This document shows, piece by piece, positions 307-28,725 of a DNA stretch of 64,000 nt. Source of the stretch: Escherichia phage YJin-2024a; the sequence record PP534475.1; one strand, 5' to 3'. Below the pieces are notes generated by a model. The model made no database searches and was not told where the DNA came from. It saw only the letters and a list, made by a program, of their open reading frames with translations. Position 1 is the stretch's first letter; each line of letters begins with the position of its first letter. A program made the position numbers and the translations under genes.

Positions 307-332
307 TTAATTATTTTCTCCTAATCTGTAAC

Positions 333-821: not shown

Positions 822-824
822 TTA

Positions 825-2104: not shown

Positions 2105-2156
2105 TTATTTTTCCAATAAAAAAGAGAGCCGAAGCTCTCTTTCGGCTAAAGAGCCG

Positions 2157-2729: not shown

Positions 2730-2818
2730 TCGGTAATCTCCATATAAGTATATAGTACAGATATAGTACTATATCTGTACTATATATCCCCTCTAATGAG
2801 GGGATATAGGAACTACTA

Positions 2819-4195: not shown

Positions 4196-4212
4196 TTTTA
4201 AATAATTCTCCG

Positions 4213-4845: not shown

Positions 4846-4848
4846 TTA

Positions 4849-5172
4849 TTAGCCTCCAACACCGGGGTTAACCGTTGCTGTGCCTGCGGTAGAATCCTTA
4901 CTATCCGTCACCGTTGCTCCCTCTTTAACAGGCATGCTAGCAGTTAAATCCTTAGAAGGAGTTAGTGGTGGAGTAGTTGGAACTGCTGTACCATAAGCCT
5001 CTACAAATTTCTTCCATACTTTACGGTTAGTATACTCAGATGAAAGTCCTAGTTCTCTACGCAGAAAAGCACAGCTAGGAACATACTTATGTGCAGCAAC
5101 CGTAGCAAAGAAGATATGAGATTCTGGCAGTTTTTCACCAAAAATGGTCTTTAGACCATTATAATCAATCAT
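4849..5172 (-). CDS. hypothetical protein
   Basis: 107 aa ORF between portal and protease. Confidence 0.45.
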   Translation of the reverse strand: MIDYNGLKTIFGEKLPESHIFFATVAAHKYVPSCAFLRRELGLSSEYTNRKVWKKFVEAYGTAVPTTPPLTPSKDLTASMPVKEGATVTDSKDSTAGTATVNPGVGG

Positions 5173-6386: not shown

Positions 6387-6823
6387 TATAAGAACCTTGC
6401 GAATCCTGATTTTGTTTCAGTCTTGACTTGTGTCTTTTCTTGAGGATTCTGTAATTTGTCTTTCTGCTTTTGAACCCACACTTTTTGCTTATTAGCAGAA
6501 AATAAAGGAGGTTCTTTTGTGTAAACCTTATGTAATAATTGGTGGTGATGCTGGCAGAGTGTTACTACTTCTTCAATTAGCTCTCGCTCATATTGCTTAT
6601 AGAATGCTTCCCTATTTGATAGGGTAACTTCCTCATCAGTGAAATCTAAATGATTTTCTTTAGCGAACTTTTTTACTAATTGAGAAACAGTAAAATAATG
6701 ATGCAACTCTAGGTCATCATTACTAGCACAAATGGCACAGCAATCACCTCTTCTATACCTAGATTTTATACCGTCACGCATGATTGAAATAGCGTCACGT
6801 TTAAACTTTACATTAGTTGCCAT
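6386..6823 (-). CDS. HNH homing endonuclease
   Basis: CCAICASNDDLELHHY HNH-type motif; internal ATG with AGGAG RBS chosen as start; inserted between terminase and portal. Confidence 0.6.
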   Translation of the reverse strand: MATNVKFKRDAISIMRDGIKSRYRRGDCCAICASNDDLELHHYFTVSQLVKKFAKENHLDFTDEEVTLSNREAFYKQYERELIEEVVTLCQHHHQLLHKVYTKEPPLFSANKQKVWVQKQKDKLQNPQEKTQVKTETKSGFARFL

Positions 6824-7083
6824 TAATGCTCCTAACTTTTTTATTATAATACTGTATGCGGTTATTATTAACTCTACTATACAGATTTTTATGCTGCCTC
6901 GGCGGGTATTTTTACCTCTAATATAGGCAACATAGCAAAATAATTTTTCTTGTTTACGTTCTATTATGGGAGAAGTTCTCCCGATCAATGAATATAGTAT
7001 ACATAATCGTATCGAATTTGTAAAGGGGATTTTAAAATGTAGGAATGGGATACCAACTGAGTAGTATCCCATCCTATACTTAT

Positions 7084-8400
7084 TTATTTACCACGGGAAA
7101 TAGAGTAAATTCCGTAGCGCAGAGCATCACAAAGGTGAGAGTTAGCATCATGACGTGGTTTTTCACGTGATAATTTTTCTTCACCTTCTTGGAAATCCCA
7201 CTTATAGTTCTGCAATGCATGGATTAATGAGGAACATGAAGCATCTACAATAATCTTACCTTGCTGGAATAGTGCTTGTAAACATGCTAGACCGTCTAGG
7301 ACAGACTTTTTAGCTGGGGCTGATGCAATTTCATGCTCATAAGCTAAGTCCTGACGGAACTGAGCTGCGGCAGAGTCAACAAAAACACGATCAACTTTAT
7401 AACGATCTATACAGTGCTGAATGTAAGCAGCATGCTGAGCTGTAGTTTTCTCCGCTTGCTGGTACTCCTCTAATACATAGTAAGTATCCGTATCGTAATG
7501 ATATTTAATAGTAAGAACTGCTGTAGGATCACGATAACCCACGTCAATGCCAAGCAATGTTTCAAAGGCTTCATCATCTTTAAAGAAGTGACGCATACCT
7601 TTAAGGTCTTTAACATGATCAATAGCATTAAAGGTATCGAAGATCTGACCTTCGAATACAGAGAAGTCAGCCTCGTATTCTTGGCGGAAGTAGTTTTTAC
7701 TAACAGTACGACGTGCTTCTTCGATATCATTCAGATCAGCACGTGGATTATCACGATATGTACCATGAATAGACACCCAGTTAGGCAACGTATCGTCAAA
7801 CCCATAGGCATAAAACTCTTTAAACCAGTTACCACCACGAGGAGTAGAGATAAATAGAGCCTTAGAGTTTGGTTTATCTAGGGTAGGGCGCAACTGAACT
7901 CTAAAGGCATCACCACCTACATCGGAAATTGCCGCCTCGTCAAAGATGATAAAGTCATATGAACGTCCAACTGCGGAGTCAGCCTGCGCCGCGGAAGCTA
8001 GTTTAAACAGTGAGCCGTTTGCCAGCTCAATCTCTTTATCTTTAGCGTTCTCACGTTCGGTTTGTAGGCCATACTTCTTAATGAGACCACGAATCTGAGA
8101 CCATCCGATGTTGGCCAGTGAATAGTTAGGAGCAACTACTAACACCTTCACGTTAGGTTCCAATAACTTTAGGAACCCAAGTGTGTATGCGATGAAGGAT
8201 TTACCTACACGGCGTGATACACACGCCGTTACAAAACGATGTCTAGGGTCCTCTAGAGCATTAATAATTGCTATTTGAGGACCATTAGGTGTTATACCTT
8301 CTTGTGCTAGTATTCCCGAAACAGGTAGACGAAAGAAACGTTTATCTATTCCGAAATCAATAACATCTACCGTATTAACGTAGGGTCTTGATACTTCCAT
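7084..8400 (-). CDS. terminase large subunit
   Basis: 438 aa; VGKSF Walker A-like N-terminal ATPase region and acidic nuclease region; upstream of portal. Confidence 0.85.
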   Translation of the reverse strand: MEVSRPYVNTVDVIDFGIDKRFFRLPVSGILAQEGITPNGPQIAIINALEDPRHRFVTACVSRRVGKSFIAYTLGFLKLLEPNVKVLVVAPNYSLANIGWSQIRGLIKKYGLQTERENAKDKEIELANGSLFKLASAAQADSAVGRSYDFIIFDEAAISDVGGDAFRVQLRPTLDKPNSKALFISTPRGGNWFKEFYAYGFDDTLPNWVSIHGTYRDNPRADLNDIEEARRTVSKNYFRQEYEADFSVFEGQIFDTFNAIDHVKDLKGMRHFFKDDEAFETLLGIDVGYRDPTAVLTIKYHYDTDTYYVLEEYQQAEKTTAQHAAYIQHCIDRYKVDRVFVDSAAAQFRQDLAYEHEIASAPAKKSVLDGLACLQALFQQGKIIVDASCSSLIHALQNYKWDFQEGEEKLSREKPRHDANSHLCDALRYGIYSISRGK

Positions 8401-8882
8401 TACTTCTTACCTCCAGTAGCTAGGGAAGTAATTAAGTCCATGTAGTTTTGATCCCCAGCTCCAGCAATAATATTGTTCTGGATATTGGTCTGGTTAGCTG
8501 GAGTACGGGCTGCTGCTTTCACTTTCTCCAACTCTACCATCATTTTCATTTCTTCCATTTTCATTTTATGTGCTTTCCAGAGAATATCCATAATATCCTG
8601 GTCAGAACCCATGCCAGTCTCTTCTAGTTCTTCCAGCTTACGTTTAATAACTTCATCTAGAACACCAAATAAACGATCCCTATTACGGAAACCACTTTCC
8701 ATAAAAATATCATTTAAGTAGTTCTTAACTTCACTACGATTCATAATATCTCGAAAAGCAATTTCGGACATTCCAAGGCTACGTGCGGCAGAAGGCACAT
8801 CGCTACCGCACTGTAAATAAGCTTCAATCACATCCATCCCTTCAGGGGACATAAGATCTGGTACTAATACATCATTTGCCAT
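8400..8882 (-). CDS. putative terminase small subunit / HTH DNA-binding protein
   Basis: 160 aa; helix-turn-helix-like [16 protein letters not shown]; TAATG overlap with the terminase large subunit start. Confidence 0.45.
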
Positions 8883-8892
8883 ATTTCCTCCT

Positions 8893-10680
8893 TTAGGTAA
8901 GGCGTTGAACTGTTACTCTTAATCTTGGTAGGAAAATAGCTGCAGCCTCATCTGCATGAATAATTACGCCCAATTCAGCATTACCATTTCCTAGATTTTT
9001 AATAGTATAAATATATCCGTTTCTTCTAAATGTTAACTCATCAGGTCTACTTGCCCAAGTTTGAGTATAACTATATGCAGTAGTGGAGTGATAAGGGACT
9101 AAGTATCCAGGAGGTAAGGTTAATATTTGATGGAATATTCCATCACCTTCCGTGTAACTATGCTGTCTTCTTCCTTGTACTTGCCAAGCAGCACCACCGT
9201 ATGTGCGTATGGCTCCTCCAGCCGTATTAATATTACCCATAATAACTTCCGTAGTTAATATTACCGTTGCGTTAGCGTTAGGCAATCCTAATCCTATGGT
9301 GGCCAAAGCTCTATAGTAGTTGCCTGCTCCAGGATACGCGGGGGTTATATCATCACCAACGTAGGTGCTAGCAACATTATTAGGAAATAGTCTTAAAGGT
9401 ACAGTACTAGGACTCCACACAGCTCCATGCTCATTACCGATAGTGTTATTACTTGAGTTTACGTACCATTGCTTACCTGCTCCGAATTTGTAAATACTGA
9501 TTTGAGACTTGGCTCCTCCATAATCTACAGGAGACCATAAAGATCCATTACTAGATCCTACAATTTCACATCTTGCAGTGGTATCCCCGAAGGCTCCAGT
9601 GTACGCTGCGTTATTTCCAATGTACTCCATATCTGGCCTATAGCCTAAGTTACCAAAAGCATTTTGGTTGATAAACTTATATCCAGTATTTGGTAAACTA
9701 ACCCCTTTTATAGTAAAATTAGATGGAGTTATAAGTATATCTGACCCAGTAAATGGATTACCAGATACACCCATATTACCATTAGAGTACCTTAGATTAA
9801 GTACATACCAAATAACCTTAGTAGGAGTTATGTTATACCAATCCTGCACATACACTTTCTTAGCGGCCTGTGCTGCTAGATTAGATGTTGAACCTTTACA
9901 TATATAAACCTTATCAGGATACGTAGGAGATTGGTATAATAAGTTAACATTAGCTGGTACTGTGCCCTTTTTACCTACGTAACCTCGTATATTAGAGTTA
10001 CAAACATAGAACCAATTATGCCCCCTATGGGCGGCCCCTATAGGAGCTTGCCAATTAGGATGCCAGTAGTCAGCATTACCACCGTCTATAGGTACTGTAG
10101 ATGCTCCTGCTGGAAATCCTGCTAAAGTCCATGCCCTACCTATAGCCTCACCAGCATATGCTCCTCCCGGCCTATATAAATTAAACCCGGAGGCTTGAGA
10201 TATGGTACCACCTGTACCCTGCCTAGCAATTGATTCTTCATGGCCTAAACCAGAGTTATAAATATAGGTGCCATGTGCTAAACTATTACCTGATGCAAAA
10301 GCTGACGTAAGACCTACTTCTGCACCTGCCCTACCAATAGGCGGATCTTCAAAAAATGCAGTAAATTGACCAACTTGAGACTGAGTACCATTAAGAAAAG
10401 CCCTATGAGTACCATTAATCTCAATAGCAGTTAGTATAACTCTACCTGGGTCATTGGATTTAATATTTATTATGTCAGAGGGCATCTGACATACAAAAAA
10501 CCCATTTCCAGCATTTCCTAATCCAGCCTCATAAGTGCCATCAACTAGGACAAATGGCATATCACTATGAAAAATACTATTGGCATTTGGACTATAATGA
10601 CGATTAATGTCACCACCAGATTCAGTATTTAAAGATAGTACGGTCTTACCATCGCTATATTTTCCAGCGAAAAAACCCAT
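8893..10680 (-). CDS. receptor-binding tail protein (pb5/Oad-like) or tail fibre
   Basis: 595 aa, Gly/Asn/Tyr-rich; last late gene before the repeat region; divergent lipoprotein gene next to it, as recalled for T5 oad-llp. Confidence 0.5.
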
Positions 10681-11864: not shown

Positions 11865-12015
11865 TTTGACTTTTGCCAAATTTCATAAGATTACACATGG
11901 AGGTGTGCCCAGTGGCCTCCCGGATGAGAATGCGTCTCATTACCGCCCGGTACTTAGCAGACTAATAGTCACGGCATGTTATCATTGCACACCGTGACTA
12001 TTTCAATTTTAATTA

Positions 12016-12750
12016 TTATGCGACTTTTAGTTTCTCAATATATTGTTGCGGGCTGCAACTATATTCCGCGCGTTCTTCCTCGGTCATACTTTCCCAGCAT
12101 AACTTCAATCGATCGGCTAGAAATTGATAATCATTATCATCGTCGAGAGATTCATCAATAAAGGTTCCGCCTATCAATGCCACGCCGATGGATAGAATAT
12201 CATTAACGGCTTGCGCATCTAGCGTTTTAAATCCGTATGACGCCGCCGCTGATAATACACCTTTATGATCATCAATCATTGTAAAATCAGCGTTCGGATA
12301 TAGTTGCTTGAATAGCTCAAAGTAATGGCTTTTATATATATCGTCCTTGCTGTGGTATATCTCGCTAACCTTATCAGCCGTAAAATATTTGTGAAGTGTA
12401 TCGCGGGAAAACACGCGGATATTAGTATCCCCACGCCCGCGCAATCCTTGTTTGCGTAGGAAGTAATAATCTGACTTGCTCATCAGTCGAGCGGTACAAA
12501 TAATGTTTAAAGTGTTTGCGTCATTCATGCACTGGCGCATATATTCCACCAATGGCAATAAGGTATCTTGCATAATTAAATCATGCTTGCAAGCCTCATT
12601 TTTATACTTATTTAAATCTAAATTACCCTCGCTATCAAAGCAAGGTGCTACACGATGGAACGAATTAATGATTGTGCCATCAAGATCCCAGATCATGACA
12701 CGGGAAATATGCGGGAAATTACGGGTAATATTCGTTTTAACTTGATTCAT
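12016..12750 (-). CDS. dmp: 5'-deoxyribonucleotidase (HAD superfamily), Dmp-like
   Basis: HAD motif I WDLDGTI; start placed at the internal Met with GGAGA RBS (244 aa). Confidence 0.7.
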   Translation of the reverse strand: MNQVKTNITRNFPHISRVMIWDLDGTIINSFHRVAPCFDSEGNLDLNKYKNEACKHDLIMQDTLLPLVEYMRQCMNDANTLNIICTARLMSKSDYYFLRKQGLRGRGDTNIRVFSRDTLHKYFTADKVSEIYHSKDDIYKSHYFELFKQLYPNADFTMIDDHKGVLSAAASYGFKTLDAQAVNDILSIGVALIGGTFIDESLDDDNDYQFLADRLKLCWESMTEEERAEYSCSPQQYIEKLKVA

Positions 12751-12830
12751 TTTGTTACGTTCTCCATTAAAGGGATTTAGTTTATCCAGCATTACCCGCT
12801 ATTTATAAGCGGGTAATAATAAATCAACTA

Positions 12831-13223
12831 TTAAAGACCATAAGCCAACGCATCAGCGATGAAGCTAATATCTTCGCCGGATACATGAGAACGAATACCA
12901 GCGCAAGTATACACCTTTGCGCTCGTTAGCTGATCATCAAAGCAAGCTGGACAAGGCGCGACAACTGCAAACGCTAGGCCAGCTTTTACGGCGTCGATGA
13001 TAATCGTTTCCTGCTTCACCGTATCAACATAAACGCCTGCGGCCTTGATGTGACTACTTGCGCGGCCTTGAGTATAGGCAAAGGTAGTAACCTGCAAAGC
13101 GTCATTGAAGTCTAATAATTCATCAATAACGTGCCCCGCCTCAACGTGGTAACGTTCACCATTAGAATAAACCAGAACGATTGAGGATTGAGCGCGATCG
13201 AATGGAATATTTTGCTTTTTCAT
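12831..13223 (-). CDS. hypothetical protein (130 aa)
   Basis: ORF with conserved pre-early leader upstream; contains PCPAC motif but no convincing family assignment. Confidence 0.5.
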   Translation of the reverse strand: MKKQNIPFDRAQSSIVLVYSNGERYHVEAGHVIDELLDFNDALQVTTFAYTQGRASSHIKAAGVYVDTVKQETIIIDAVKAGLAFAVVAPCPACFDDQLTSAKVYTCAGIRSHVSGEDISFIADALAYGL

Positions 13224-13288
13224 GTTTATAACTCCAATTAATTTAATAAGGGATATAAGCGAGGTATATACCCCGCTTATAAAGTTAA

Positions 13289-14959
13289 TTATGCGAAAAA
13301 TTTGCCGTTTTTAAAGTCAATCAAAGTGCGCTGACCGTTCGCATAGGTAATTAAATGCGTTTGCGTCCAGCTTGACGCGCCAACGTTGTAACCCATATCG
13401 AGGGAACCAGCAACGCCCGCGGTATATACACCGCCGTAAATGCTTGCCGTATGCGTATGCCCCGTGTTTAACTTGCCCAATTTTTTAAATTGCTTCGGAT
13501 TGCCACGGCTGCCGTTAATGCCGTTGTGACCGTGTACGCCGCATTCAATGCCTGCAATTTTAAATGATTGGTCAGTCGTTAGGAAAATTGCGTTAAACTC
13601 GCAACCTGCAACCGTACGCAGCGCATAATCTAGCACGTTGAAAGTATCGTCATGATTACCGATTGCCGCGTAAATCGCAGCATTAAGGCGGTGATACAGT
13701 TCCGCGTTGGCTGGATCGTCTTTAATGTTAGCATTGCGATCATCAAGCCAACGAGAAAGCGCCAAATCGTGGTTTGATTCCACAATGATTGTTTGACTAA
13801 AATCACGTTCCATTGATTCCAGCACGCGCCCGGTGTCGATCAGATCATCAATAACCTTATCACGTCCGGCTGCATACTGTTTCGCTAGAAATACACCAGA
13901 CGCGCGGTTGTGATGGTTGCGTGATGTAAAATCATGCACGTCATGGACGAATTGATATTTTGGTTTGAGAATATCCACTAGCCCATAAGTATCACCGTGA
14001 CCCCATGACGCAGCGGCGCACTCCTCGTCTAATTTTTCGGCGTGAATATCGCCATATTGCAAGCCTAAAACATGCCCCGTTGTTTCAAAGCATCCGGTGG
14101 GAGTAGCGCAAACGTTCAGATCGTAAAACATGCCGCTTTCGTCCATTGTTTCAAGCTGGCGCACAAAAAACTCACCGTCTTCGTCGAACTCAACAATCAG
14201 CGCACCGTAATTATGCAATGCTTCCGCTTTTTGCCCTGCTTTCTGCTGAATGTAGTTTTTAAGCGTTGCCGTTCCGGTTGAATACATGCGGCGTACTACT
14301 TCACCTTTGAGAGCTGGGACGCTTTCGGCGGTGATTTTAGCGTGACCAATTGCCAGACCTTCAAGATTAAGCGCCGTTGCAGTTTCTGCAAATCCAGATA
14401 GCGGGTAATCTGCGGTGGGCAAAACATTAATTTCAGCCATGAAAGCGAAACGGCGGTTATTTAAAAACACGTTTTTGCTGCAAATATATTTATCAAATGC
14501 GGAATCATATTTTACACCGTCTGCGCCTTCACCATTTTGAAAGCCGTTTTTGTTATAAATATACTTAGAAACAAGCAAATCAGCGCCGATAAATTGGGCA
14601 TATTGTTCAAGCGAGGCTAAAAAGTTTTTATGAGGGAAAGTATTATTCTGAATCGATGTAATAATAAAGCGTTTGCCTTGTTTTACTTCCCACTGTTCAA
14701 CCGTGCTGGAAATAATTCCAGCCGCTTCGGGGCGCTCGTCGTTTTTAATGGCTTTTACAGCTTTCGCCGCTTTTGGTTTCGCTGGTTTATTTGCTTCTAA
14801 CCAATCGCAAATTGCGGTCGAGTGCTTCGTTGTGTCATATACCGCTTTAGAAATATCGTCACAAACTTCCAGCTTGGTGGCGCGCAGACGTTTACCGTAG
14901 AAATTAAAGTCAGCGGCCAGTTTCAGGATAACGGTTTGTTTTTCTGCGGAAAAAATCAT
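13289..14959 (-). CDS. A1: A1-like pre-early protein, calcineurin-like metallophosphoesterase
   Basis: GDIHA, GHGDTYG, SNHD and GHTH phosphoesterase motifs; 556 aa from the internal Met, the length I recall for T5 A1. Confidence 0.75.
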   Translation of the reverse strand: MIFSAEKQTVILKLAADFNFYGKRLRATKLEVCDDISKAVYDTTKHSTAICDWLEANKPAKPKAAKAVKAIKNDERPEAAGIISSTVEQWEVKQGKRFIITSIQNNTFPHKNFLASLEQYAQFIGADLLVSKYIYNKNGFQNGEGADGVKYDSAFDKYICSKNVFLNNRRFAFMAEINVLPTADYPLSGFAETATALNLEGLAIGHAKITAESVPALKGEVVRRMYSTGTATLKNYIQQKAGQKAEALHNYGALIVEFDEDGEFFVRQLETMDESGMFYDLNVCATPTGCFETTGHVLGLQYGDIHAEKLDEECAAASWGHGDTYGLVDILKPKYQFVHDVHDFTSRNHHNRASGVFLAKQYAAGRDKVIDDLIDTGRVLESMERDFSQTIIVESNHDLALSRWLDDRNANIKDDPANAELYHRLNAAIYAAIGNHDDTFNVLDYALRTVAGCEFNAIFLTTDQSFKIAGIECGVHGHNGINGSRGNPKQFKKLGKLNTGHTHTASIYGGVYTAGVAGSLDMGYNVGASSWTQTHLITYANGQRTLIDFKNGKFFA

Positions 14960-15048
14960 AATAATAAACTCCATTAAAGGGACTAGGTTAATAATGGCAA
15001 TGTTGCCAAATATAACGCCTTGAATAATAGGCGTTATAATTTGCAACA

Positions 15049-15246
15049 TTAATTTAAAGGCATCAGGCTAGAACTAACACCACAAACAATGGCAGCAATA
15101 AAACAAATCAGACCTAAACGCTTTGCCAATATTGATTTACGTTTAAAATAATACGAATCTAAATCATTTTGAAAATATGCGAACAATAATGAAGCCGCCA
15201 TAATAAATAAGCCTAGAATGAGCGATTCAGTGGGGTAAAAGATCAT
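15049..15246 (-). CDS. small membrane protein
   Basis: Hydrophobic 65 aa; start placed at the ATG preceded by the conserved pre-early leader (the ORF track begins at an upstream GTG). Confidence 0.4.
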   Translation of the reverse strand: MIFYPTESLILGLFIMAASLLFAYFQNDLDSYYFKRKSILAKRLGLICFIAAIVCGVSSSLMPLN

Positions 15247-15303
15247 TTTAATAACTCCAATTAAAGGGAAATTATAGTGGGGAATAATCCCCACTAGTTA
15301 AAT

Positions 15304-15711
15304 TTATTCACCTGCGGCCTGTTTTACCTCATCGGCAACGCCTAGCAGTTGCGCCACGGCGTCCAACGTTTCTAATTTTGCGCTTTCCAGTGATGCCAGA
15401 TCATCGGCGTCCTTGATAATGCCGGAATCAATAGCGTGTTTTGCAATTACTCGCACATAGTGAGCTTTACGGATTGAACTACCGCCGCCAACTTTGCGCG
15501 GCTTGTCGCTTTTCTGGTAGGCTTTCGCGCTGGTCAATTTCGAACGAACTGACACGGGAGAAGTAGCGCCCACTGCCTTTGCGATCTCTTTCAAGCCGTC
15601 GCTATTTGCAAAATCTAGCCCGTTTTCATTGATTAGTTGCTGATACATGGAAACAGCCTGCTGGGTGTTTTCTTCGTTCCAGGAAAATTTTGCGGTTTTT
15701 GCGTTAGTCAT
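15304..15711 (-). CDS. A2: A2-like pre-early protein
   Basis: 135 aa, basic C-terminal half; immediately downstream of A1; conserved leader upstream. Confidence 0.55.
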   Translation of the reverse strand: MTNAKTAKFSWNEENTQQAVSMYQQLINENGLDFANSDGLKEIAKAVGATSPVSVRSKLTSAKAYQKSDKPRKVGGGSSIRKAHYVRVIAKHAIDSGIIKDADDLASLESAKLETLDAVAQLLGVADEVKQAAGE

Positions 15712-15811
15712 GATATAAACTCCAATTAATTTAATTTAAGGGATTAAATGATTAACTAATGTTAATCGTTATATACCCCAAACTATCGGGGCATATAAAG
15801 TTAACACTAAT

Positions 15812-16063
15812 TTATAAAACGGCTTCCCATTTTTCGTTGCGTTGAACAACCTTTACAACGTCGCCGGATTTAACGCGAACGTTATAAATCGGCTTGCCGC
15901 TGTTACTGCGTTCTGTTTCAGCGTATACCGCGTCAATTGTATCGAACGGCATGAGCGCCGCGCCTTTAATACGTTCGGCTTTTCCGGTTAATTCGTCCGT
16001 TTTAGTAACGAAAGGAATAAAAACGGATTGACCAATTTTTGGCGCGGTAATAACGTTTTGCAT
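15812..16063 (-). CDS. hypothetical protein (83 aa)
   Basis: ORF with partial conserved leader upstream. Confidence 0.4.
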   Translation of the reverse strand: MQNVITAPKIGQSVFIPFVTKTDELTGKAERIKGAALMPFDTIDAVYAETERSNSGKPIYNVRVKSGDVVKVVQRNEKWEAVL

Positions 16064-16293
16064 AATATAAACTCCTGTTTATTTGCTGGATTGTTCCGCA
16101 TTACCTGCTAGAAAATAACAGGTAATAAGAAAAAATCCGCTCGCCATTGTAAAATCAATTTAAGGAACTCCACGAAGGCCGCTATATCCCAGTTAGGGGG
16201 CGGGGCACATTATGGCAAGTACCGGCCGTCAGATTTTATCAAGTTATCGCTCTTATCGAACTGGGTATATCTTAAAGCCTACCGGCTAGGTTG

Positions 16294-16497
16294 TCAAATA
16301 GTTTTTTGCGCTTTTTTATGATTTTCCTTCAGGTCAATCATAATGTTTCGCCAGATCATTTCTAGTCCTTGCTGGCGGCCTTTCTTGTACTGCTCAAATC
16401 GATATTTTACCGATCTTTGCGCTACTGTCAATAAATTTTTTGTTTTGCTATCCAGTGCCTTGCTAGGTTTACCAGTGATCAATAAAGTTTGTTTCAT
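16294..16497 (-). CDS. hypothetical basic protein (67 aa)
   Basis: ORF only. Confidence 0.3.
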   Translation of the reverse strand: MKQTLLITGKPSKALDSKTKNLLTVAQRSVKYRFEQYKKGRQQGLEMIWRNIMIDLKENHKKAQKTI

Positions 16498-17187
16498 ATC
16501 GTCGATTCCTTATAATGAATAAGTTTACCGCCGATAGGCTTTAAGATATACCCAATTTTTAAAGAGCGCGGCGGTAAACTTCCCGCCGTGTAGTTCGTCA
16601 TTGCCGCCCTACGAGATAAATAATAACAAACAACGAAAAAGGCGCAACCTTATATTTGTAAAGAAATGTAAAGACAAACGCCACCGGACACCGTGCGGCG
16701 ACCTGGGCGCAGCGCATTAAAATTAAAAGAAACGGGCGCGCGAATAACACAAAACATAGCAGATAGGCAAGTGATTTTTTCATTTATATTTGCTTTGGGG
16801 GTATTGACAAAATCTAAAAAGCTCGTGGCAGCGATAAACGGCTTATCCCTTTATGATTGGATGGCTAAAAACTTTATCGCGTTCTGGGGCGTTTTAGGCC
16901 GCCTATTTTCGACTTAACAAATCATTAACAAACGCAAAATTGAAAAATAGTTGGAAAAGGTCTTGACTTTTAAAAATCAAGGGGCGTTGCGTTAATTTAT
17001 TAAATAAAATATTTGACTTTTATTTGTTAGTATGCATCGGAAAGATAGCAGACTAATAATTGCTAGGATGATAATCATGCTGGTGGATTGTAACGGCCTG
17101 AATTATTAGCAGACTATTAATCACGGAAAATCTCATTAGCCAACTAACTATTTCATGATATATAATATACTTATAAATTAATGAGAA

Positions 17188-17270
17188 ATAATAACAATAA
17201 GAAATCATCACCATTATAATAATAACAATAAGAAATCATCACCAATATAATAATAACTATAAGAAACTAT
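17188..17270. repeat. tandem ~30 bp repeat, about 2.8 copies
   Basis: ataataacaataagaaatcatcacca repeated head-to-tail. Confidence 0.7.
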
Positions 17271-17280
17271 CGGCCTAAGT

Positions 17281-17410
17281 GAGAACCACTATCATTTAAG
17301 TTATCCACAACGTTTTCCACAGCACAAAATAACTTGACACGATAGGCGGCGATATGAGGGCTTTTACACATACTTATCCACAGGTTATCCTACTGTATAA
17401 ATATACAGGG
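17281..17410. repeat. inverted repeat arm A with DnaA-box motifs
   Basis: Two perfect TTATCCACA boxes (about 17301 and 17375); reverse complement matches 19575..19710. Confidence 0.75.
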
Positions 17411-17643
17411 TAGAAAGACAGTGTTAACGACTGCAATCAATTTTAAGCGGCTTAAAACGCTTTCTAACGAGCTGAAGGCTGCGGGGTAATATTAAAGTAA
17501 AGCCTCAATGCGTCGCCCTGGTGGCTTCGCCGTGTTTTGCTCTTTATTACACCGCTGCGCGGTTAGCATAAAAATAGGCGTTAGGCAAGAAAAAATTTAC
17601 CAATAACACCGAAAACGAGTAATAACTAGCCTATTGTAAAGTT

Positions 17644-17684
17644 TTGTAAAGGTCGCCTTTTATGGTGGCCTTTTTTGTTATAAT
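17644..17684 (+). promoter_or_regulatory. candidate promoter with extended -10 (TGTTATAAT)
   Basis: tgtTATAAT at 17677-17684, about 25 nt before the first plus-strand ORF. Confidence 0.35.
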
Positions 17685-17707
17685 GCCTTTACACCGTTTG
17701 AGGACGG

Positions 17708-17971
17708 TTGAAAATTTTCCCAAAAATTTGGAGGCTTAAAATGGTTGCTTTTTCTTCTTCTGACGCTCTTTTCACTGGTAAAGGCTGGGTATCAAATCGC
17801 TGGATTATTCAGGAAATGGTGCAAGAATACGGCATTGCTAAAACTTATACTACCATTCAGGCGCTTTATGATAATGATCAAATCGATCAGCAAACAGCGG
17901 GCTTTTTACTGGATACCCTGAAGGCGGAACACTGTACCAAAAAACAAGCCGCCAAAATTGTTTTAATGTAA
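17708..17971 (+). CDS. hypothetical protein (87 aa)
   Basis: GGAGG RBS; first gene of the plus-strand module. Confidence 0.5.
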   Translation: MKIFPKIWRLKMVAFSSSDALFTGKGWVSNRWIIQEMVQEYGIAKTYTTIQALYDNDQIDQQTAGFLLDTLKAEHCTKKQAAKIVLM

Positions 17972-18021
17972 TTAATAACGGGGCGATACTTTCGCCCCCA
18001 CTAACTAGGGGAGTATTAAAA

Positions 18022-18171
18022 ATGGTTATTTTTCGAGCTATTCTGGCGGGTATCTTGGGCGCTATTTTATCTTTGTTTGCAATAGCTTTCGACGTTCACG
18101 CGGTTATTATAGGCGCGGGTATCGCTGTATTTTCTTATCTGCTGGGCTGCATGAATAGTAAAGGAGAATAA
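18022..18171 (+). CDS. small membrane peptide (49 aa)
   Basis: GGGGAG RBS; hydrophobic throughout; not in the ORF track. Confidence 0.35.
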   Translation: MVIFRAILAGILGAILSLFAIAFDVHAVIIGAGIAVFSYLLGCMNSKGE

Positions 18172-18173
18172 AA

Positions 18174-18386
18174 ATGATCCGCAACGTTTCTCTTGCACGT
18201 TCGAAAGGTTTTAAGCTGGTGGACGCTAACACGTTCGAGCGTCCAGATTGTAAAATCGAATATGTAGCACGTAATAAAAATGCCTTTCGTGTTACCGAGA
18301 AAAAATTTGATAAGCGCGGCAACGTGATCCTTGAAACGGTTAGGCACTTTGCCACCTTTTACGCTGCATTTCGTGGGGTACTATGA
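18174..18386 (+). CDS. hypothetical protein (70 aa)
   Basis: AAGGAG RBS immediately upstream. Confidence 0.5.
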   Translation: MIRNVSLARSKGFKLVDANTFERPDCKIEYVARNKNAFRVTEKKFDKRGNVILETVRHFATFYAAFRGVL

Positions 18387-18508
18387 AAAGCGTTATTGTT
18401 GTTCTCCTTGCAATGGCTGGCGGTTTTATCGCCACCTTATTTAAGAATGATCCTCTTTCATTGGGGATCTTTATGTTATTATCAGGCTATCTGATCGGGA
18501 GGTTATAA
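18383..18508 (+). CDS. small membrane peptide (41 aa)
   Basis: ATGA overlap with the upstream ORF; hydrophobic. Confidence 0.35.
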   Translation: MKSVIVVLLAMAGGFIATLFKNDPLSLGIFMLLSGYLIGRL

Positions 18509-18509
18509 A

Positions 18510-18854
18510 ATGGTTATTTATGAGGGCAACCGTTTTGTTGCTAACTGCCGCCCGGCATTGTTAGCAAACTATTTGAACCAGCTTTCGCCAGCTTATAAGG
18601 GCGTTATTAATATTTATGAGGGCAAGGCGCATTATAAAATCAATGCGGTCGTTGCCCGTGAACTAGCGTTTCAATTTTTGACCTTTGCATCTTGCGACGT
18701 TCAGGTTATGGGTGAGGCATTAATCGCAGAAAATGAAGACGATTTTATTAATATTTTCCGTAAGGTGTGCACCGAGCGCCTGATAATGAAAGGCGCGTAT
18801 ATTCAATCCACGGCTGATAGTATTGAAACAGCGTTTCGAAAAATAGGTAAATAA
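18510..18854 (+). CDS. hypothetical protein (114 aa)
   Basis: GGGAGG RBS; largest ORF of the module. Confidence 0.5.
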   Translation: MVIYEGNRFVANCRPALLANYLNQLSPAYKGVINIYEGKAHYKINAVVARELAFQFLTFASCDVQVMGEALIAENEDDFINIFRKVCTERLIMKGAYIQSTADSIETAFRKIGK

Positions 18855-18855
18855 T

Positions 18856-19017
18856 ATGGCTGTTTATATTGCTTTGCTAGGATATGCGTTATCCCTTATT
18901 GTTGGTATGGTTATTTATAGCGCAATCGGCAATATTGTGTTATCCCTTGTTGTCTGCACTATATTAGGGCAGTTTTGCGGAATGTTCGTTATATATAAAT
19001 TAATGCAAGGAAAATAA
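18856..19017 (+). CDS. small membrane peptide (53 aa)
   Basis: Starts 2 nt after the upstream stop; hydrophobic. Confidence 0.35.
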   Translation: MAVYIALLGYALSLIVGMVIYSAIGNIVLSLVVCTILGQFCGMFVIYKLMQGK

Positions 19018-19127
19018 TACTAATGAGATTATATATTTTCGTTGGTAATGCTAGGGCAGCTAATGATTCCGCTGGTGGCGATAACGTTCGCCACTATTGG
19101 CAAAAATATATTTACTAGGGCATTATT

Positions 19128-19322
19128 ATGAGCAATAAAATTATTGTAACCAAAACTAGTACAATGGTTGATATTTTTTACGTGCCCGATACGCCGGAAA
19201 ACCGACAAGCGGTTGAGCGTGGGGAATATGATAAAGTGATCTATGATCACGATGGTTATTATCAGTATTTGGTGGATTCATATGGGGAGGAGGAAAAAAT
19301 CACGCATCGACTACCCGACTAA
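19128..19322 (+). CDS. hypothetical acidic protein (64 aa)
   Basis: ORF with upstream ATG context. Confidence 0.4.
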   Translation: MSNKIIVTKTSTMVDIFYVPDTPENRQAVERGEYDKVIYDHDGYYQYLVDSYGEEEKITHRLPD

Positions 19323-19365
19323 TAATCACGGGGCGCAACTATCCGGAAGTGCCCCCAATTTTCAA

Positions 19366-19384
19366 ATGATAATCATTCTCATTT
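19366..19384. promoter_or_regulatory. palindromic site AATGATAATCATTCTCATT (full-site version of the half-site repeat downstream)
   Basis: Near-perfect dyad built from the AATGAGAAT half-site. Confidence 0.5.
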
Positions 19385-19574
19385 GACCGCGCCCGCGATG
19401 GTTAGCCTGCTAATGGTTAGGGTGTTACGTGTCGCCTTGTGTGATCGTTAGCGGGCTAACTAATTTTCAAGCCTCCTCCAATTTTGCCCTTGTTTTAGTA
19501 CCTCCAACAAAATTAAACGCGTTAGAATGCGTTTGAGGGCGTTTTAACGCTATATTAGAACTATTCACTGCGTA

Positions 19575-19710
19575 GGAATACTGTATATTTATACAGTAGG
19601 ATAAGCTGTGGATAAGTCTGTTGATAACGCCTCAAAATGGCTAGGATTTTGTCAAGTCAAATCGTGCTGTTGATAAGTCTGTGAATAACTTAAATAACAG
19701 TGTTTCTCAC
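19575..19710. repeat. inverted repeat arm B with DnaA-box motifs
   Basis: Reverse complement aligns with 17281..17410 over about 130 bp; TGTGGATAA at about 19607. Confidence 0.75.
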
Positions 19711-19719
19711 TTCCATTCT

Positions 19720-19937
19720 TAAATGAGAATCATTATCGTTCGCATTCCGCTTTTTAAATGAGAATCGTTTCACTTCTTAAATGAGAATCATTCCGCTTTT
19801 TAAATGCGAATCATTATCATTTGCATTCCACTTCTTAAATGAGAATCATTCCGCTTTTTAAATGAGATTGATTCTCGTTTCACTTTCTAAATGCGAATTA
19901 TTATCATTCTCATTCCGCTTTTTAAATGAGAATGATT
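19720..19937 (+). repeat. array of 8 direct repeats TAAATG(A/C)GAAT(C/G)ATT
   Basis: Copies at about 19720, 19755, 19778, 19801, 19836, 19859, 19888, 19923. Confidence 0.8.
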
Positions 19938-19983
19938 CTTATTATCATTCGTATTTAGCGCAGGGCAATTGCCCTGCGCTTTT

Positions 19984-20583
19984 GTGCAAATCCGACATTG
20001 CTCCACGGGTGTTACGTGCGGGTGTATGTGCAAATCCGACAGGATTTTTGGTAGTGTGCAAATCCGACCCGAAAAATTTTTATAGTGTGCAAATCCGACA
20101 ATGAATTTTCCCAAAAACTCCAGCAATCTCGAACTGCGTTCGAATCCTGTGGGGTATGTGCAAATCCGACATGGTTTTTCTAGGATTAAGATGTGCGAAT
20201 CCGACAAGATTTTTATGACTTCGATTGGAGGGTGTGTGATTATGTGAGTTTGGGGAGAAGATGAGAGAGTGAGAGAAACTTGGGGGAACTGTGGGAGAGG
20301 CGCATGTTTGGTGCGGAGCACCCGATTTGCGGGGATTTTGGGGAAGAGTTGAGAAGATTTGGGTTAATTTGAGATTAGTGGAGATAAAGTAAAATTTTAT
20401 TAGCAAAATGGGGCAAAATAGCTTGACAAGTGAAAATTTCTGTGGCTCTAAAAACTCAGGTAAACATGGGCCTTCGGCCCGAAATAATGCTGCTATTTTC
20501 ATGAGATTATATGTTCCTAAAAACTTAGGCAATTGTGCAAATCCGACCATAAATTTCTAGAAACACAATGTGCAAATCCGACA
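19984..20583 (+). repeat. array of 8 direct repeats GTGCAAATCCGAC(A/C)
   Basis: Copies at about 19984, 20028, 20056, 20087, 20158, 20193, 20535, 20570, each followed by a short T-rich tract. Confidence 0.8.
20226..20400 (+). repeat. purine-rich block with several G4-5 tracts, almost no C on the plus strand
   Basis: gggagaag, tgggggaac, gcggggatt, ttggggaag within about 170 nt. Confidence 0.6.
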
Positions 20584-21118
20584 ATAAAATCCAGAAATGT
20601 GTTTTCAAAAAATGTCTCCTAGAAATAACCGCCCTCCCCATAACCGCCCTGTATTAAACCGCCTAGTATATGTTCCTAGAAACTTAGGAGAACCGCCCAC
20701 TAGAAGTATGATATCTCGTGAGAACTCTGGAGTTTCTAGGAAAGTGTTGTGCCATCCTAGCAGATGAGTGGCAACCGGTGTATCATCTTGAATGTAAATT
20801 ATGTGGACAAAAGTTTTACCTTTTATTTAAATAAAAGATCCCCAGGGTTCTCATATAGAGCTTTGCCCCCGCCAGAAGGTCTCGTGGTGTTTCTAGCAAT
20901 TTATATTAAATTACTTATTAACTTGTCCTGTCGCTCCGTATCCTCCGCTACAAGTTAGTAATTTTAAATTACTGAACCACCACACCTTCTGTGTGGCAAC
21001 TCTAAATGGTTAATTCTATTAACTCATAGAGTTATGATAACATACATTTAGCTATCTGTCAACGAGAGTTTGTATTTGAGTCTCGGTACAGGTATTGTGC
21101 ACCGAGACATGCAGGATC

Positions 21119-22003
21119 TTACAGTAACTCTTGGTATGCTTTTTGATACGCCTCAGTGTCAGTAGGTGTACCTTTTGCTAGTGCAATTAATTCATCTGTT
21201 ATCTGAATATTCGTATTATAACGTGTGTGGAACTCGTTAGGAATTTCTAGGTATCTATTGATGAATGCTGCAGCAAGCGGTGTGACTAAACCAATCTCTA
21301 GAGATAGCTTAACTTGTTTTTCGTAGATTAAATATTGAGAATCAGATGGGATTGGTTGGGTTACGTCAGTTTTCTCCGGTTCTTTTTCTGGAAGCAATGG
21401 ATTATTATATAATGCTTCATCTGGAAGCACAGATTTACGCTCTTTAAATATATAAGTTTCTAGATCCGATGCTTTAGATCCTGAGTATACCGCAAAGACG
21501 CTAGCTTTACCCTGGGATGCCCTAACTGGTAAATAACTAGTAGGATAGCTTCTTAATGCATCATGGAATGGACTTCCTGAGTACTTGTACGTATCCCCAT
21601 AGAGATCATCAATATTCATTCGTTCATCTTCAAAAATGTGAAAAGAGCTAAATGATGGGATAGTAAAGTATTCCATCTGTAACCCATAAACTAAGAAACG
21701 GTGTGCATATGCGCTAATCTTTAAGACTGTGAATGCTTTTTCACCTTCCTTATAAGAATTGCCCTTTGAAGTAACTTGATAACGTTTACAAAACATCTCT
21801 ACTAGACGTTTCTCATTAATATTAAGGGTGGAGTACAGTCGTCCACTTAATCCTATAAGTGCATCGAACATAAATGCTAGTTTATCTTTTTCTTCCTGAG
21901 ATAGTTCTGGAAACGGTAATACTTTCGCATTAGGAACATTATTGTTCTCTTTAGGTTTTGTTTTACCAGCATTTTGTCTTAGTTTATCTTTAAAGTTATA
22001 CAT
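21119..22003 (-). CDS. hypothetical early protein (294 aa)
   Basis: ATG with GGGAG RBS; first gene after the repeat region. Confidence 0.6.
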   Translation of the reverse strand: MYNFKDKLRQNAGKTKPKENNNVPNAKVLPFPELSQEEKDKLAFMFDALIGLSGRLYSTLNINEKRLVEMFCKRYQVTSKGNSYKEGEKAFTVLKISAYAHRFLVYGLQMEYFTIPSFSSFHIFEDERMNIDDLYGDTYKYSGSPFHDALRSYPTSYLPVRASQGKASVFAVYSGSKASDLETYIFKERKSVLPDEALYNNPLLPEKEPEKTDVTQPIPSDSQYLIYEKQVKLSLEIGLVTPLAAAFINRYLEIPNEFHTRYNTNIQITDELIALAKGTPTDTEAYQKAYQELL

Positions 22004-22082
22004 TATTATCTCCCGTTTTTAAGGTCTGGATGACCTTCTTTTTATTTTAGAGCCTCCGTAGAGGCTCATGTATTAGGAATTA

Positions 22083-28721: not shown

Positions 28722-28725
28722 TTAA

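What the first reader, a model, noticed from the sequence alone, without database searches (positions are those of the whole stretch)
20226..20400. Strand-asymmetric purine block with multiple G4-5 tracts
About 170 nt on the plus strand are almost entirely G and A, with four or more G-runs of four or five. This is an abrupt compositional anomaly for an AT-rich phage and could form a G-quadruplex or stable R-loop. It sits beside the iteron array near the likely repeat boundary.
Basis: seen in the sequence. Interest (0 to 1): 0.5.

Follow-up and report, generated by a model that had tools for sequence, protein, structure and literature searches.

The report
C-poor block at T5 repeat boundary
This is a conserved, non-coding, G-rich and C-starved stretch just inside the right edge of the long terminal repeat of a T5-like phage; it lies in the region annotated in T5 as the "injection stop signal", does not look like a G-quadruplex, and has the composition of a Rho termination (rut) site or a genome-end signal.

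Summary
The window is a T5-like phage (Tequintavirus). The compositional anomaly at 20226-20400 is real. It has 39% G and 5.7% C and the highest GC skew of any 175-nt window (z=5.8). It is not "almost entirely G and A": purines are 66% and T is 28%. Its four G4-5 runs are what 39% G gives by chance. There is no G-quadruplex motif and no predicted G4. Of the four runs, one is kept in 21 of 22 relatives; the others in 16, 8 and 2.

The block is orthologous to T5 ~9995-10170, the right part of the annotated "injection stop signal". It ends 48 nt inside the terminal-repeat boundary (window 20448). It is non-coding. Two C-free arms flank a small hairpin that shows compensatory changes. The same G>C polarity occurs at this position in Sugarlandvirus, Pantoea AAS21, Vibrio Chester and Aeromonas AhSzq-1, although the sequences differ.

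Read leftward, as the adjacent early genes are, it is the most C>G-biased and least structured RNA segment of the 64 kb. My best reading (0.35) is a Rho-loading insulator. A packaging or genome-end signal (0.3) and a role in the injection stop (0.15) remain open. The region is known; its function is not.

The parts
20226..20400 (+). The reported block: G-rich and C-poor on the + strand, C-rich and G-poor on the - strand. Non-coding.
   Evidence: Composition and rank. Orthologous to T5 NC_005859 ~9995-10170. G is 37-42% and C 4.5-13% in all 33 T5-like loci sampled.
20223..20298 (+). Left C-poor arm, with C only at 20279 and 20289. It holds degenerate repeat copy 1, GAGTTTGGGGAGAAGATGAGA (20246-20266).
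   Evidence: C positions. Repeat family D5. The 20269-20308 segment is the least conserved part (0.63-0.66).
20301..20331 (.). Central two-tier hairpin. The outer stem is CGCA 20301-20304 with TGCG 20328-20331. The inner stem is GGTGC 20310-20314 with GCACC 20318-20322. It holds 8 of the block's 10 C residues.
   Evidence: Every Markadamsvirinae relative folds to the same two-tier hairpin. The inner stem changes on both sides in phiR2-01 (TGGCG/CGCCA) and KPP2018 (GGCGT/ACGCC). One outer pair is CG in 7 sequences and AU in 4.
20331..20403 (+). Right C-free arm. It contains the orthologues of Wang et al. 'direct repeat A' copy 2 (20335-20353, ATTTTGGGGAAGAGTTGAG) and copy 3 (20357-20373, ATTTGGGTTAATTTGAG). 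It also holds the best-conserved G run (20340-20343).
   Evidence: AY587007 annotation and coordinate transfer. Repeat D5 copy 2. The 20340 run is intact in 21 of 22 relatives.
20404..20448 (.). The last 45 nt of the terminal repeat. This is the most conserved stretch and it ends at the repeat's right boundary (20448|20449).
   Evidence: The last base of the T5 record aligns to 20448. The phiR2-01 repeat_region and the Sepoy PhageTerm repeat end at the same aligned base. Conservation is 0.94-0.96.
19984..20208 (+). Six copies of the GTGCAAATCCGAC repeat ('direct repeat D' in T5), to the left of the block.
   Evidence: family D1; T5 annotation.
20528..20591 (+). Two more GTGCAAATCCGAC copies to the right of the boundary. 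The block and the boundary therefore interrupt the array.
   Evidence: families D1, D2.
21034..21062 (-). Strong sigma-70-like promoter (TTGACA-17-TATCAT with TG) that points leftward towards the boundary and the block.
   Evidence: 11 of 12 matches. No intrinsic-terminator-like site was found on the - strand between here and 19534.
21119..22003 (-). First early gene right of the repeat (T5.018 homologue), transcribed leftward towards the block.
   Evidence: All long ORFs with T5 counterparts from 21119 to 30000 are on the - strand.
11906..20448 (.). The single (collapsed) copy of the 8,543-bp terminal repeat in this window.
   Evidence: The left boundary comes from alignment to the T5 unique/RTR junction.

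Best explanation
What it is (shown). This is the orthologue of the last ~220 bp of the T5 long terminal repeat. It is a non-coding module lying in a gap of the GTGCAAATCCGAC repeat array and ending 48 nt before the repeat's right boundary. It consists of two C-free G/A/T arms around a small conserved hairpin. What selection maintains is strand composition, G much greater than C on the + strand. It does not maintain the particular G tracts.

How it most likely works (inferred). The adjacent early genes, and a strong promoter at 21062-21034, are read leftward. An RNA polymerase leaving them would cross the boundary and copy the block into an untranslated, almost unstructured RNA with 39% C and 6% G. 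That composition is the hallmark of a Rho-loading (rut) site. Host Rho would load there and release the polymerase within the next few hundred nucleotides, in the repeat array or at the palindrome at 19957-19980. The block would then act as an insulator. It would keep early-region transcription out of the terminal repeat, that is, away from the DnaA-box and repeat core of the injection-stop region, the pre-early genes and the genome end.

This reading does not exclude a second role in forming the genome end. In T7, a transcription pause at the concatemer junction is tied to DNA maturation.
For: - The minus-strand copy of 20223-20300 is the most C>G-biased 78-nt window on either strand of the 64 kb, with 37 C and 2 G. 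20306-20383 ranks third.
- The 175-nt RNA folds at -11.8 kcal/mol. Random 175-nt windows give -38.1 +/- 7.8, and none of 300 is weaker. YC dimers are 3.4 times the window average.
- These properties match the published description of rut sites: C>G bias, little structure, 60-90 nt (PMC12360218).
- The block is not translated on either strand.
- Transcription is expected to arrive from the right. All genes from 21119 onward are on the minus strand. There is an 11/12 promoter match at 21062-21034 on the minus strand. No intrinsic-terminator-like site lies on that strand before 19534.
- Composition is conserved while sequence drifts. 117 of 175 columns vary among 22 relatives, yet C stays at or below 9% and G at 37-41%.
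- The same polarity occurs at the same place in lineages whose sequence is unalignable or built from other motifs. These are Sugarlandvirus, Pantoea AAS21 (strongest skew of 14 kb), Vibrio Chester (strongest skew of 16 kb, 8-nt tandem repeats, no G runs) and Aeromonas AhSzq-1 (skew 0.80, directly after the last leftward CDS).
- In every one of these, the neighbouring genes are transcribed towards the block.
Against: - No transcript data were available, so leftward read-through into the block is inferred, not shown.
- About 700 nt of other conserved non-coding sequence lies between the last gene and the block. It includes a very stable long hairpin that might already end transcripts.
- In Chester, an intrinsic-terminator-like hairpin precedes the block.
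- The block has conserved sequence islands and a covarying hairpin. A purely compositional rut site does not require either.
- The two wobble cases in the hairpin (G-T on the + strand) would be A-C mismatches in the minus-strand RNA.
- The orientation of the skew relative to the genome end and relative to the early genes is the same in all lineages examined. Conservation of polarity therefore cannot separate this reading from a terminus-related one.
- A rut site would have no use in the right-hand copy of the repeat.
Confidence: 0.35

Rival explanations
1. Genome-end or packaging signal. The block is the inner flank of the terminase cutting site at the right end of the terminal repeat. Its position resembles lambda cosB, T7 pacB with the short-repeat arrays of the T7 repeat, or herpesvirus pac1. 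It would be bound or bent by the small terminase subunit or another end-processing protein. If packaging starts at the right end, it is the first DNA to enter the capsid.
For: - The block ends a fixed 48 nt from a boundary fixed independently in T5 (two records), phiR2-01 and Sepoy by PhageTerm.
- The most conserved DNA of the region is the boundary itself, 20389-20488. This is the only part still alignable in Klebsiella Sugarlandvirus.
- The block contains degenerate direct repeats (D5, DRA2/3).
- In Vibrio phage Chester, the C-poor block is a tandem 8-nt repeat array that runs right up to the physical terminus.
- Herpesvirus pac1 is a T-rich element flanked by G tracts next to the cut site (PMC13595911).
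- The two most G-rich 175-nt windows of the 64 kb lie just left of the two repeat boundaries.
Against: - I found no experimental mapping of a T5 packaging site in the searchable literature.
- Sequence-specific binding does not predict a constant G>C polarity across lineages that use unrelated motifs.
- The centre of the block is poorly conserved. In Epseptimavirus it is replaced by an extra GTGCAAATCCGA copy.
- The much better conserved GTGCAAATCCGA repeats are stronger candidates for a specific binding protein. They are shared even with Chester.
- The G-rich stretch left of the left boundary is a coding gene. It shares no significant k-mers with the block.
Confidence: 0.3
2. Part of the injection stop or restart machinery. 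In the left repeat copy, the block helps arrest DNA transfer after ~8% of the genome, or it is the site where the A1/A2 proteins act to restart transfer.
For: - It lies inside the feature annotated 'injection stop signal (iss)' in T5 (NC_005859 9140..10149).
- That is 8.2-8.35% of the genome, within the error of the classical 7.9-8% estimate.
- The whole non-coding region is unusually conserved in T5-like phages (10.1101/866236).
Against: - The annotation is positional, not functional.
- Davison places the shear point ~300-470 bp to the left of the block. He argues that the signal lies left of that point, in the DnaA-box inverted repeats. On that view the block would still be outside the cell at the pause.
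- The block is not named in his catalogue of repeats.
- Nothing in the sequence indicates how it would stop DNA.
Confidence: 0.15
3. G-quadruplex or R-loop forming element. The G-rich strand folds into a G4, or stabilises an RNA-DNA hybrid, that blocks or primes a polymerase or marks the end.
For: - The strand is G-rich and has four G4-5 runs.
- Strong canonical G4 motifs, and a large predicted G4 stabilisation, occur at the same position in Sugarlandvirus FZ41 (-35 kcal/mol) and Pantoea AAS21 (-12 to -16). G-tract clusters occur in AhSzq-1.
- Herpesvirus pac1 signals are reported to form G4.
Against: - This phage has no canonical motif and no G4 in the predicted fold.
- The G runs are not in excess of chance and are not conserved.
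- The Chester block has no G runs.
- An R-loop needs rightward transcription, and no good promoter for that was found.
- The polypurine mirror repeat GAGAGAGTGAGAGA is not conserved.
Confidence: 0.07
4. No function of its own. The skew would be a by-product of strand-biased mutation, or the block would be filler between functional repeats.
For: - Two-thirds of the columns vary among close relatives, and the centre is poorly conserved.
- The depletion of C among variant alleles is modest: 16% in the block against 22-25% in the flanks.
Against: - The skew is the most extreme in 64 kb.
- It is bounded sharply.
- It persists in five lineages down to ~32% A1 protein identity.
- The block contains invariant islands and a hairpin with compensatory changes.
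- I can identify no strand-specific single-stranded state for this segment.
Confidence: 0.08
5. A small protein-coding gene on either strand.
For: - Long stop-free frames exist on the minus strand (156 and 144 aa).
- Some database records annotate 'hypothetical proteins' here.
- The + strand ORF 20291-20392 matches phrog_32079, of unknown function.
Against: - A G-poor strand can only make TAA stops, so several minus frames are open at once. Their frame and extent differ from phage to phage.
- Relatives carry 1-2-nt indels and in-frame stops in the + frame, and diversity shows no codon-phase bias (0.21/0.26/0.21).
- There are no Pfam matches.
Confidence: 0.02

Closest known systems
T5 left-terminal-repeat 'Repeat Region 3' / annotated injection stop signal (Heusterspreute 1987; Wang 2005; Davison, bioRxiv 10.1101/866236)
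   Same: It is directly orthologous, at ~87% identity to T5. It has the same order of elements: DnaA boxes, AAATGAGAATCATT repeats, the nick palindrome, the direct repeat D array, the block with direct repeat A copies 2 and 3, then the repeat end.
   Different: The literature I could read names the repeats. It does not single out the C-depleted block, its hairpin or its composition, and it assigns the block no function. The iss label is positional.
Rho utilisation sites, e.g. lambda tR1 (rutA-boxB-rutB)
   Same: The RNA is C-rich, G-poor, unstructured and untranslated, and it is longer than 60-90 nt. It lies downstream of a co-directional transcription unit. Two C-rich arms separated by a small hairpin resemble rutA-boxB-rutB (the lambda layout is from my own knowledge).
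   Different: Rho dependence, and even transcription of this strand, are untested. There is no sequence similarity. The element sits inside a terminal repeat, so it is duplicated at a genome end where it cannot act as a terminator.
T7 concatemer junction (short-repeat arrays of the terminal repeat, pacB, and the CJ transcription pause needed for DNA maturation)
   Same: It is a direct-terminal-repeat phage with strand-asymmetric short repeats next to the repeat boundary. There is a possible link between stopping transcription at the boundary and making genome ends (my own knowledge of T7; not tested here).
   Different: T7 uses its own RNA polymerase and a defined class II pause sequence, and its repeat is 160 bp. 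T5-like phages use the host polymerase and an 8.5-10 kb repeat. There is no sequence similarity.
Herpesvirus pac1 packaging signal
   Same: Both have T-rich segments flanked by G tracts at a fixed short distance from the terminase cut. The motifs here are ATTTTGGGG and TTTGGGG. Both lie in a terminal repeat, and the terminases are homologous (PMC13595911).
   Different: pac1 is a short, well-conserved motif with experimentally supported G4 potential. Here the G tracts are not conserved and no G4 is predicted for this phage.
Lambda cosB
   Same: It occupies the ~50-220 bp next to the cut site on one side, as cosB does next to cosN (my own knowledge).
   Different: cosB consists of defined R sites and an IHF site. 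No comparable defined sites, and no binding data, exist here.

Membership tests
T5-type terminal-repeat end / annotated iss region | [quoted passage not shown] | tested here: met
   Identity to T5 is 87%. 506 phage records match, and 432 of them cover at least 80% of the query. The alignment is colinear. Direct repeat D and A copies are identified.
T5-type terminal-repeat end / annotated iss region | Position at the right end of the long terminal repeat, between pre-early and early genes | tested here: met
   The repeat ends at window 20448, 48 nt after the block. The pre-early gene homologue lies at 19128-19322 and the first early gene at 21119-22003.
T5-type terminal-repeat end / annotated iss region | Cis-acting arrest of DNA transfer at ~8% | not testable with these tools
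   This needs first-step-transfer mapping in deletion mutants.
Intramolecular G-quadruplex | Four G>=3 tracts with short loops (<=7, or <=12 nt) | tested here: not met
   No match on either strand of the whole window. Among relatives, only Sugarlandvirus-type loci match, plus one long-loop case.
Intramolecular G-quadruplex | Predicted stability (G4Hunter >=1.5; G4 in the minimum-energy fold) | tested here: not met
   The G4Hunter maximum is 1.44, at a two-tract site. ViennaRNA gquad places no G4 with either RNA or DNA parameters.
Intramolecular G-quadruplex | Conservation of the G tracts | tested here: not met
   The four G>=4 runs are intact in 8, 2, 16 and 21 of 22 relatives.
Rho-dependent terminator (rut site) | C>G-biased RNA segment of 60-90 nt or more | tested here: met
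   37 C against 2 G in 78 nt on the minus strand. This is the top window of both strands of the 64 kb.
Rho-dependent terminator (rut site) | Little secondary structure, and untranslated | tested here: met
   MFE is -11.8 against -38.1 +/- 7.8, and 0 of 300 random windows are weaker. The block is non-coding.
Rho-dependent terminator (rut site) | Located in a transcribed region downstream of a promoter or operon on the same strand | tested here: inconclusive
   Gene orientation, a promoter-like site at 21062-21034 and the absence of a predicted intrinsic terminator fit. No transcript data are available.
Rho-dependent terminator (rut site) | Termination abolished by Rho inhibition | not testable with these tools
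   This needs Term-seq with bicyclomycin, or in vitro transcription with Rho.
Terminase recognition site (cosB/pacB/pac1-like) | Fixed short distance from the genome-end cut | tested here: met
   48 nt from the boundary in all alignable relatives. In Chester, a C-poor repeat array abuts the terminus.
Terminase recognition site (cosB/pacB/pac1-like) | Repeated, conserved protein-binding motifs | tested here: inconclusive
   There are only degenerate repeats: D5 at 81% identity, and DRA2/3. The centre of the block is poorly conserved.
Terminase recognition site (cosB/pacB/pac1-like) | Bound by terminase and required for packaging | not testable with these tools
   No T5 data were found in the papers searched.
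Protein-coding gene | Conserved reading frame with codon-position substitution bias | tested here: not met
   Frames differ among relatives. Frameshifting indels and in-frame stops occur, and there is no phase bias. No Pfam hit.
Known RNA family (Rfam 15) | Match to a covariance model | tested here: not met
   Within 19000-21500 there is only a sub-threshold PrrF hit at 19851-19986, outside the block (29 bits against a gathering score of 90).

The most novel reading that the evidence does not exclude
The C-starved block is a composition-defined signal shared by all Demerecviridae. It would couple a host-Rho-dependent transcription stop at the terminal-repeat boundary to formation of the genome end, as a host-polymerase counterpart of the T7 concatemer-junction pause. 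Alternatively, it is a pac1-like or telomere-like G-strand packaging signal in a tailed phage. In either case, strand composition rather than a sequence motif would be what the machinery reads.
Probability: 0.12. Interest if true: 0.6.

Novelty: new member of a known kind. Interest (0 to 1): 0.35.

Why it matters
How T5 stops and restarts DNA transfer, and how its 10-kb terminal repeats are cut and regenerated, are still unsolved after more than 50 years. The non-coding end of the repeat is where both events must be encoded.

This work shows that one module of that region is maintained for strand composition across the whole family. It gives a concrete, cheap test: Term-seq with bicyclomycin, and copy-specific deletion. 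It also removes the G-quadruplex idea for this phage. If the rut or insulator reading holds, it would be a rare documented use of host Rho by a virulent phage to partition temporal gene classes. If the packaging reading holds, it would define the first packaging element for T5-like phages.

As it stands, this is an orthologue of a long-sequenced region with an inferred function, so its interest is moderate.

Tried and rejected
- **G-quadruplex.** A motif scan, G4Hunter and ViennaRNA gquad were all negative for this window.
- **Excess of G runs.** Not significant against shuffles of the block.
- **Triplex (H-DNA) at GAGAGAGTGAGAGA.** The mirror repeat is not conserved. In Epseptimavirus it is replaced by a GTGCAAATCCGA copy.
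- **Coding.** Minus-strand ORFs of 156 and 144 aa have no PHROG or Pfam match. The + ORF hit to phrog_32079 is best explained as a family built from annotated non-genes.
- **Rfam.** Nothing in the block.
- **Shared sequence signal upstream of both repeat boundaries.** Shared 6-9-mers do not exceed composition-matched shuffles (P = 0.09-0.25 for 6-8-mers; none shared at 9).
- **Telomere-like polarity, with a G-rich 3'-ending strand at both ends.** This is clear at the T5 left end (C 38%, G 15% in the first 60 nt) but weak in this window and in L030, so I dropped it.
- **Chi-like sequence in the hairpin arm.** GGTGGTGG occurs only in some Epseptimavirus and is not conserved here (judged by eye).
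- **Selection against C among variant alleles.** The trend is modest (16% against 22-25%; T-to-C is the rarest change from T). I did not test it formally.
- **RNAalifold on a MAFFT alignment of the hairpin.** It mis-registered the inner stem. The inner-stem covariation is therefore read from the per-sequence folds.
- **Literature searches for a mapped T5 packaging site or T5 transcript ends.** They found nothing usable.

Full report
**Identity of the window**

Megablast of 19400-21100 finds 455 phage records, almost all Salmonella or Escherichia T5-like phages, at 88-94% identity. The 281 nt around the finding match 506 records.

An alignment with T5 (NC_005859) is colinear. Window 20226-20400 corresponds to T5 ~9995-10170. 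In T5 this is the right-hand part of the feature annotated "injection stop signal (iss)", 9140..10149. It is also the last ~220 bp of the left terminal repeat, 1..10219.

AY587007 numbers the same sequence 80 lower. It annotates "direct repeat A" copies 2 and 3 inside the block, and "direct repeat D" copies on both sides.

The last base of the T5 record aligns to window 20448. The repeat_region of phiR2-01 and the PhageTerm repeat of Sepoy end at the same aligned base. The left boundary maps to 11906.

The window therefore holds one collapsed copy of an 8,543-bp terminal repeat. The end of the late region lies on its left and the early region on its right.

**The observation**

- The block has 39.4% G, 5.7% C, 26.9% A and 28.0% T.
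- Its GC skew of +0.75 is the largest of all 175-nt windows (z=5.8).
- It is C-depleted rather than purine-only; purines are 66%.
- Four G runs of 4-5 exist, but shuffles of the block give 2.5 +/- 1.3 such runs (P=0.20). GG is not over-represented.
- Eight of the ten C residues lie in 20301-20330. That leaves C-free stretches of 56 and 73 nt.

**Anatomy**

The order of elements, left to right, is as follows.

1. Six GTGCAAATCCGAC repeats (19984-20208).
2. A left C-poor arm.
3. A two-tier hairpin. The outer stem is CGCA/TGCG at 20301-04 and 20328-31. The inner stem is GGTGC/GCACC at 20310-14 and 20318-22.
4. A right C-free arm with DRA2 (20335-53) and DRA3 (20357-73).
5. A highly conserved 45-nt stretch.
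6. The repeat boundary at 20448|20449.
7. A second hairpin (20468-80).
8. Two more GTGCAAATCCGAC repeats.

All Markadamsvirinae relatives fold the central segment into the same two-tier hairpin. Both sides of the stems change together. The inner stem is TGGCG/CGCCA in phiR2-01 and GGCGT/ACGCC in KPP2018. One outer pair is C-G in 7 sequences and A-U in 4.

**Not a gene, not a known RNA**

- The long minus-strand frames exist because a G-poor strand can only make TAA stops. Several frames are open at once, and their frame and extent differ among 24 relatives.
- The + strand ORF 20291-20392 hits a PHROG of unknown function.
- Relatives carry 1-2-nt indels and in-frame stops in that frame, and diversity is flat across codon positions.
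- Pfam and Rfam give nothing in the block.

**G-quadruplex**

- There is no canonical motif, even with loops up to 12.
- The G4Hunter maximum is 1.44, at a two-tract site.
- ViennaRNA with quadruplex energies places no G4 in this window and only a marginal one in T5.
- The four G>=4 runs are intact in 8, 2, 16 and 21 of 22 relatives.

Sugarlandvirus and Pantoea AAS21 do have strong G4 motifs at this position. AhSzq-1 has G-tract clusters there. G4 potential is therefore lineage-specific. It is not the conserved property.

**What is conserved**

In 33 T5-like loci the equivalent 177 nt always has 37-42% G and 4.5-13% C. Among 22 Markadamsvirinae, 117 of 175 columns vary, yet C never exceeds 9%. 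Conservation peaks at the boundary (20389-20488) and is lowest in the block's centre.

| Lineage | What is found at the equivalent place |
|---|---|
| Pantoea phage AAS21 | Strongest skew of 14 kb, just inside a recognisable boundary motif |
| Vibrio phage Chester (A1 protein 32% identical; exact 8,006-bp repeats in the record) | The T5-equivalent right end of the repeat is 130 nt of tandem 8-nt repeats with 31% G and 8% C and no G runs; strongest skew of 16 kb |
| Aeromonas phage AhSzq-1 | Three successive C-poor modules in the same place and polarity; the strongest (skew 0.80) starts directly after the last leftward gene |

Selection therefore acts on strand composition next to the right repeat boundary.

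**Mechanism**

Three readings fit.

*(a) Rho loading site.* Read leftward, the block gives the most C>G-biased 78-nt window of either strand (37 C, 2 G). The RNA is nearly structureless (-11.8 against -38.1 +/- 7.8 kcal/mol; 0 of 300 random windows weaker). YC dimers are 3.4 times the average. These are the accepted hallmarks of rut sites (PMC12360218).

All early genes to the right are leftward. A strong promoter-like site at 21062-21034 points leftward. No intrinsic-terminator-like site was found on that strand before 19534.

This reading best explains why composition and polarity, rather than sequence, are conserved.

*(b) Genome-end or packaging signal.* The fixed 48-nt distance from the cut, the degenerate repeats and the terminal array in Chester fit this reading. 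So does the comparison with herpesvirus pac1, a T-rich element flanked by G tracts.

*(c) Part of the injection stop or restart.* The support is only positional. Davison places the signal further left.

Polarity relative to the end and polarity relative to the early genes are coupled in every lineage examined, so sequence alone cannot separate (a) from (b). In T7 the two processes are mechanistically linked (my own knowledge).

I put (a) at 0.35, (b) at 0.30 and (c) at 0.15. G4/R-loop gets 0.07, no function 0.08 and coding 0.02.

**Novelty**

The DNA is a long-known, annotated part of the T5 terminal repeat. The papers I could read do not describe any of the following:

- the C-depleted block as a unit;
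- its covarying hairpin;
- its family-wide compositional conservation;
- a rut-like reading.

The function remains inferred. I rate the interest as moderate to low.

Noticed in passing
window 20720-21100 (minus strand): This non-coding stretch is almost identical to T5, with only a few mismatches. Neighbouring genes are ~86% identical. It starts just after a strong sigma-70-like promoter (21062-21034, minus strand). As RNA it folds into a ~130-nt extended hairpin (MFE -66.5, z=-4.7). It could be a small RNA or a cruciform. There is no Rfam match. Promoter-like sites sit at the same relative place in Chester and AAS21.
   Followed up: partly
window 20468-20480: The hairpin GGGCCTTCGGCCC lies 20 nt outside the repeat boundary and is conserved in Tequintavirus and Epseptimavirus. 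In Klebsiella Sugarlandvirus a different hairpin (ACGGTGACACACCGT) takes its place at the same position. This suggests a structural requirement.
   Followed up: partly
window 20439-20460, 20508-20529, 20667-20688: The 22-nt sequence that spans the repeat boundary (TCTGTGGCTC|TAAAAACTCAGG) recurs twice to the right as TATATGTTCCTA[A/G]AAACTTAGG (family D3).
   Followed up: no
window 11648-11822 and 20223-20397: The two most G-rich 175-nt windows of the 64 kb lie just left of the two terminal-repeat boundaries (11906 and 20448). The first is inside a coding gene, the T5.162 membrane-protein homologue. The two share no significant k-mers. On the minus strand both are downstream of leftward operons.
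   Followed up: partly
L042 1245-1545 (Vibrio phage Chester, unique DNA next to the repeat): The T5 'direct repeat D' core GTGCAAATCCGA is present as several copies (as GGATTTGCAC / GAATTTGCAC on the record strand) in a phage whose A1 protein is only 32% identical. A 12-mer repeat conserved this deeply points to a conserved DNA-binding protein.
   Followed up: no
L040 1-130 (Chester) and L043 5300-5525 (Aeromonas AhSzq-1): Both carry long tandem arrays of 8-nt units of the type TAGA[A/T/C]G[G/T]C (…GATGGCTAGAAGTCTAGATGG…). Two distant Demerecviridae genera share them. They are absent as such from T5-like phages, which instead have scattered CTAGAA motifs right of the boundary.
   Followed up: no
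window 19598-19690: Paired DnaA-box-like sequences (TGTGGATAAGTCTGTTGATAA and TGTTGATAAGTCTGTGAATAA), as Davison describes for T5-like phages. Similar pairs sit ~200-270 nt from the Chester terminus.
   Followed up: no
window 19957-19980: A perfect 24-nt palindrome, AGCGCAGGGCAATTGCCCTGCGCT, orthologous to the site of the T5 major single-strand nick at 7.9% / 99.6%. In the right repeat copy, the minus-strand piece from the terminus to this nick would be a ~470-nt C-rich fragment that covers the block.
   Followed up: no
database records: Several records labelled Listeria or Campylobacter phages (e.g. OR847759.1, MG065642.1) carry this T5-like sequence. They are probably mislabelled or contaminated entries.
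   Followed up: no
window 20291-20392 (+): phrog_32079, of unknown function, matches a 33-aa ORF that comparative analysis shows is not coding. The PHROG appears to be built from over-annotated ORFs on conserved non-coding DNA.
   Followed up: partly
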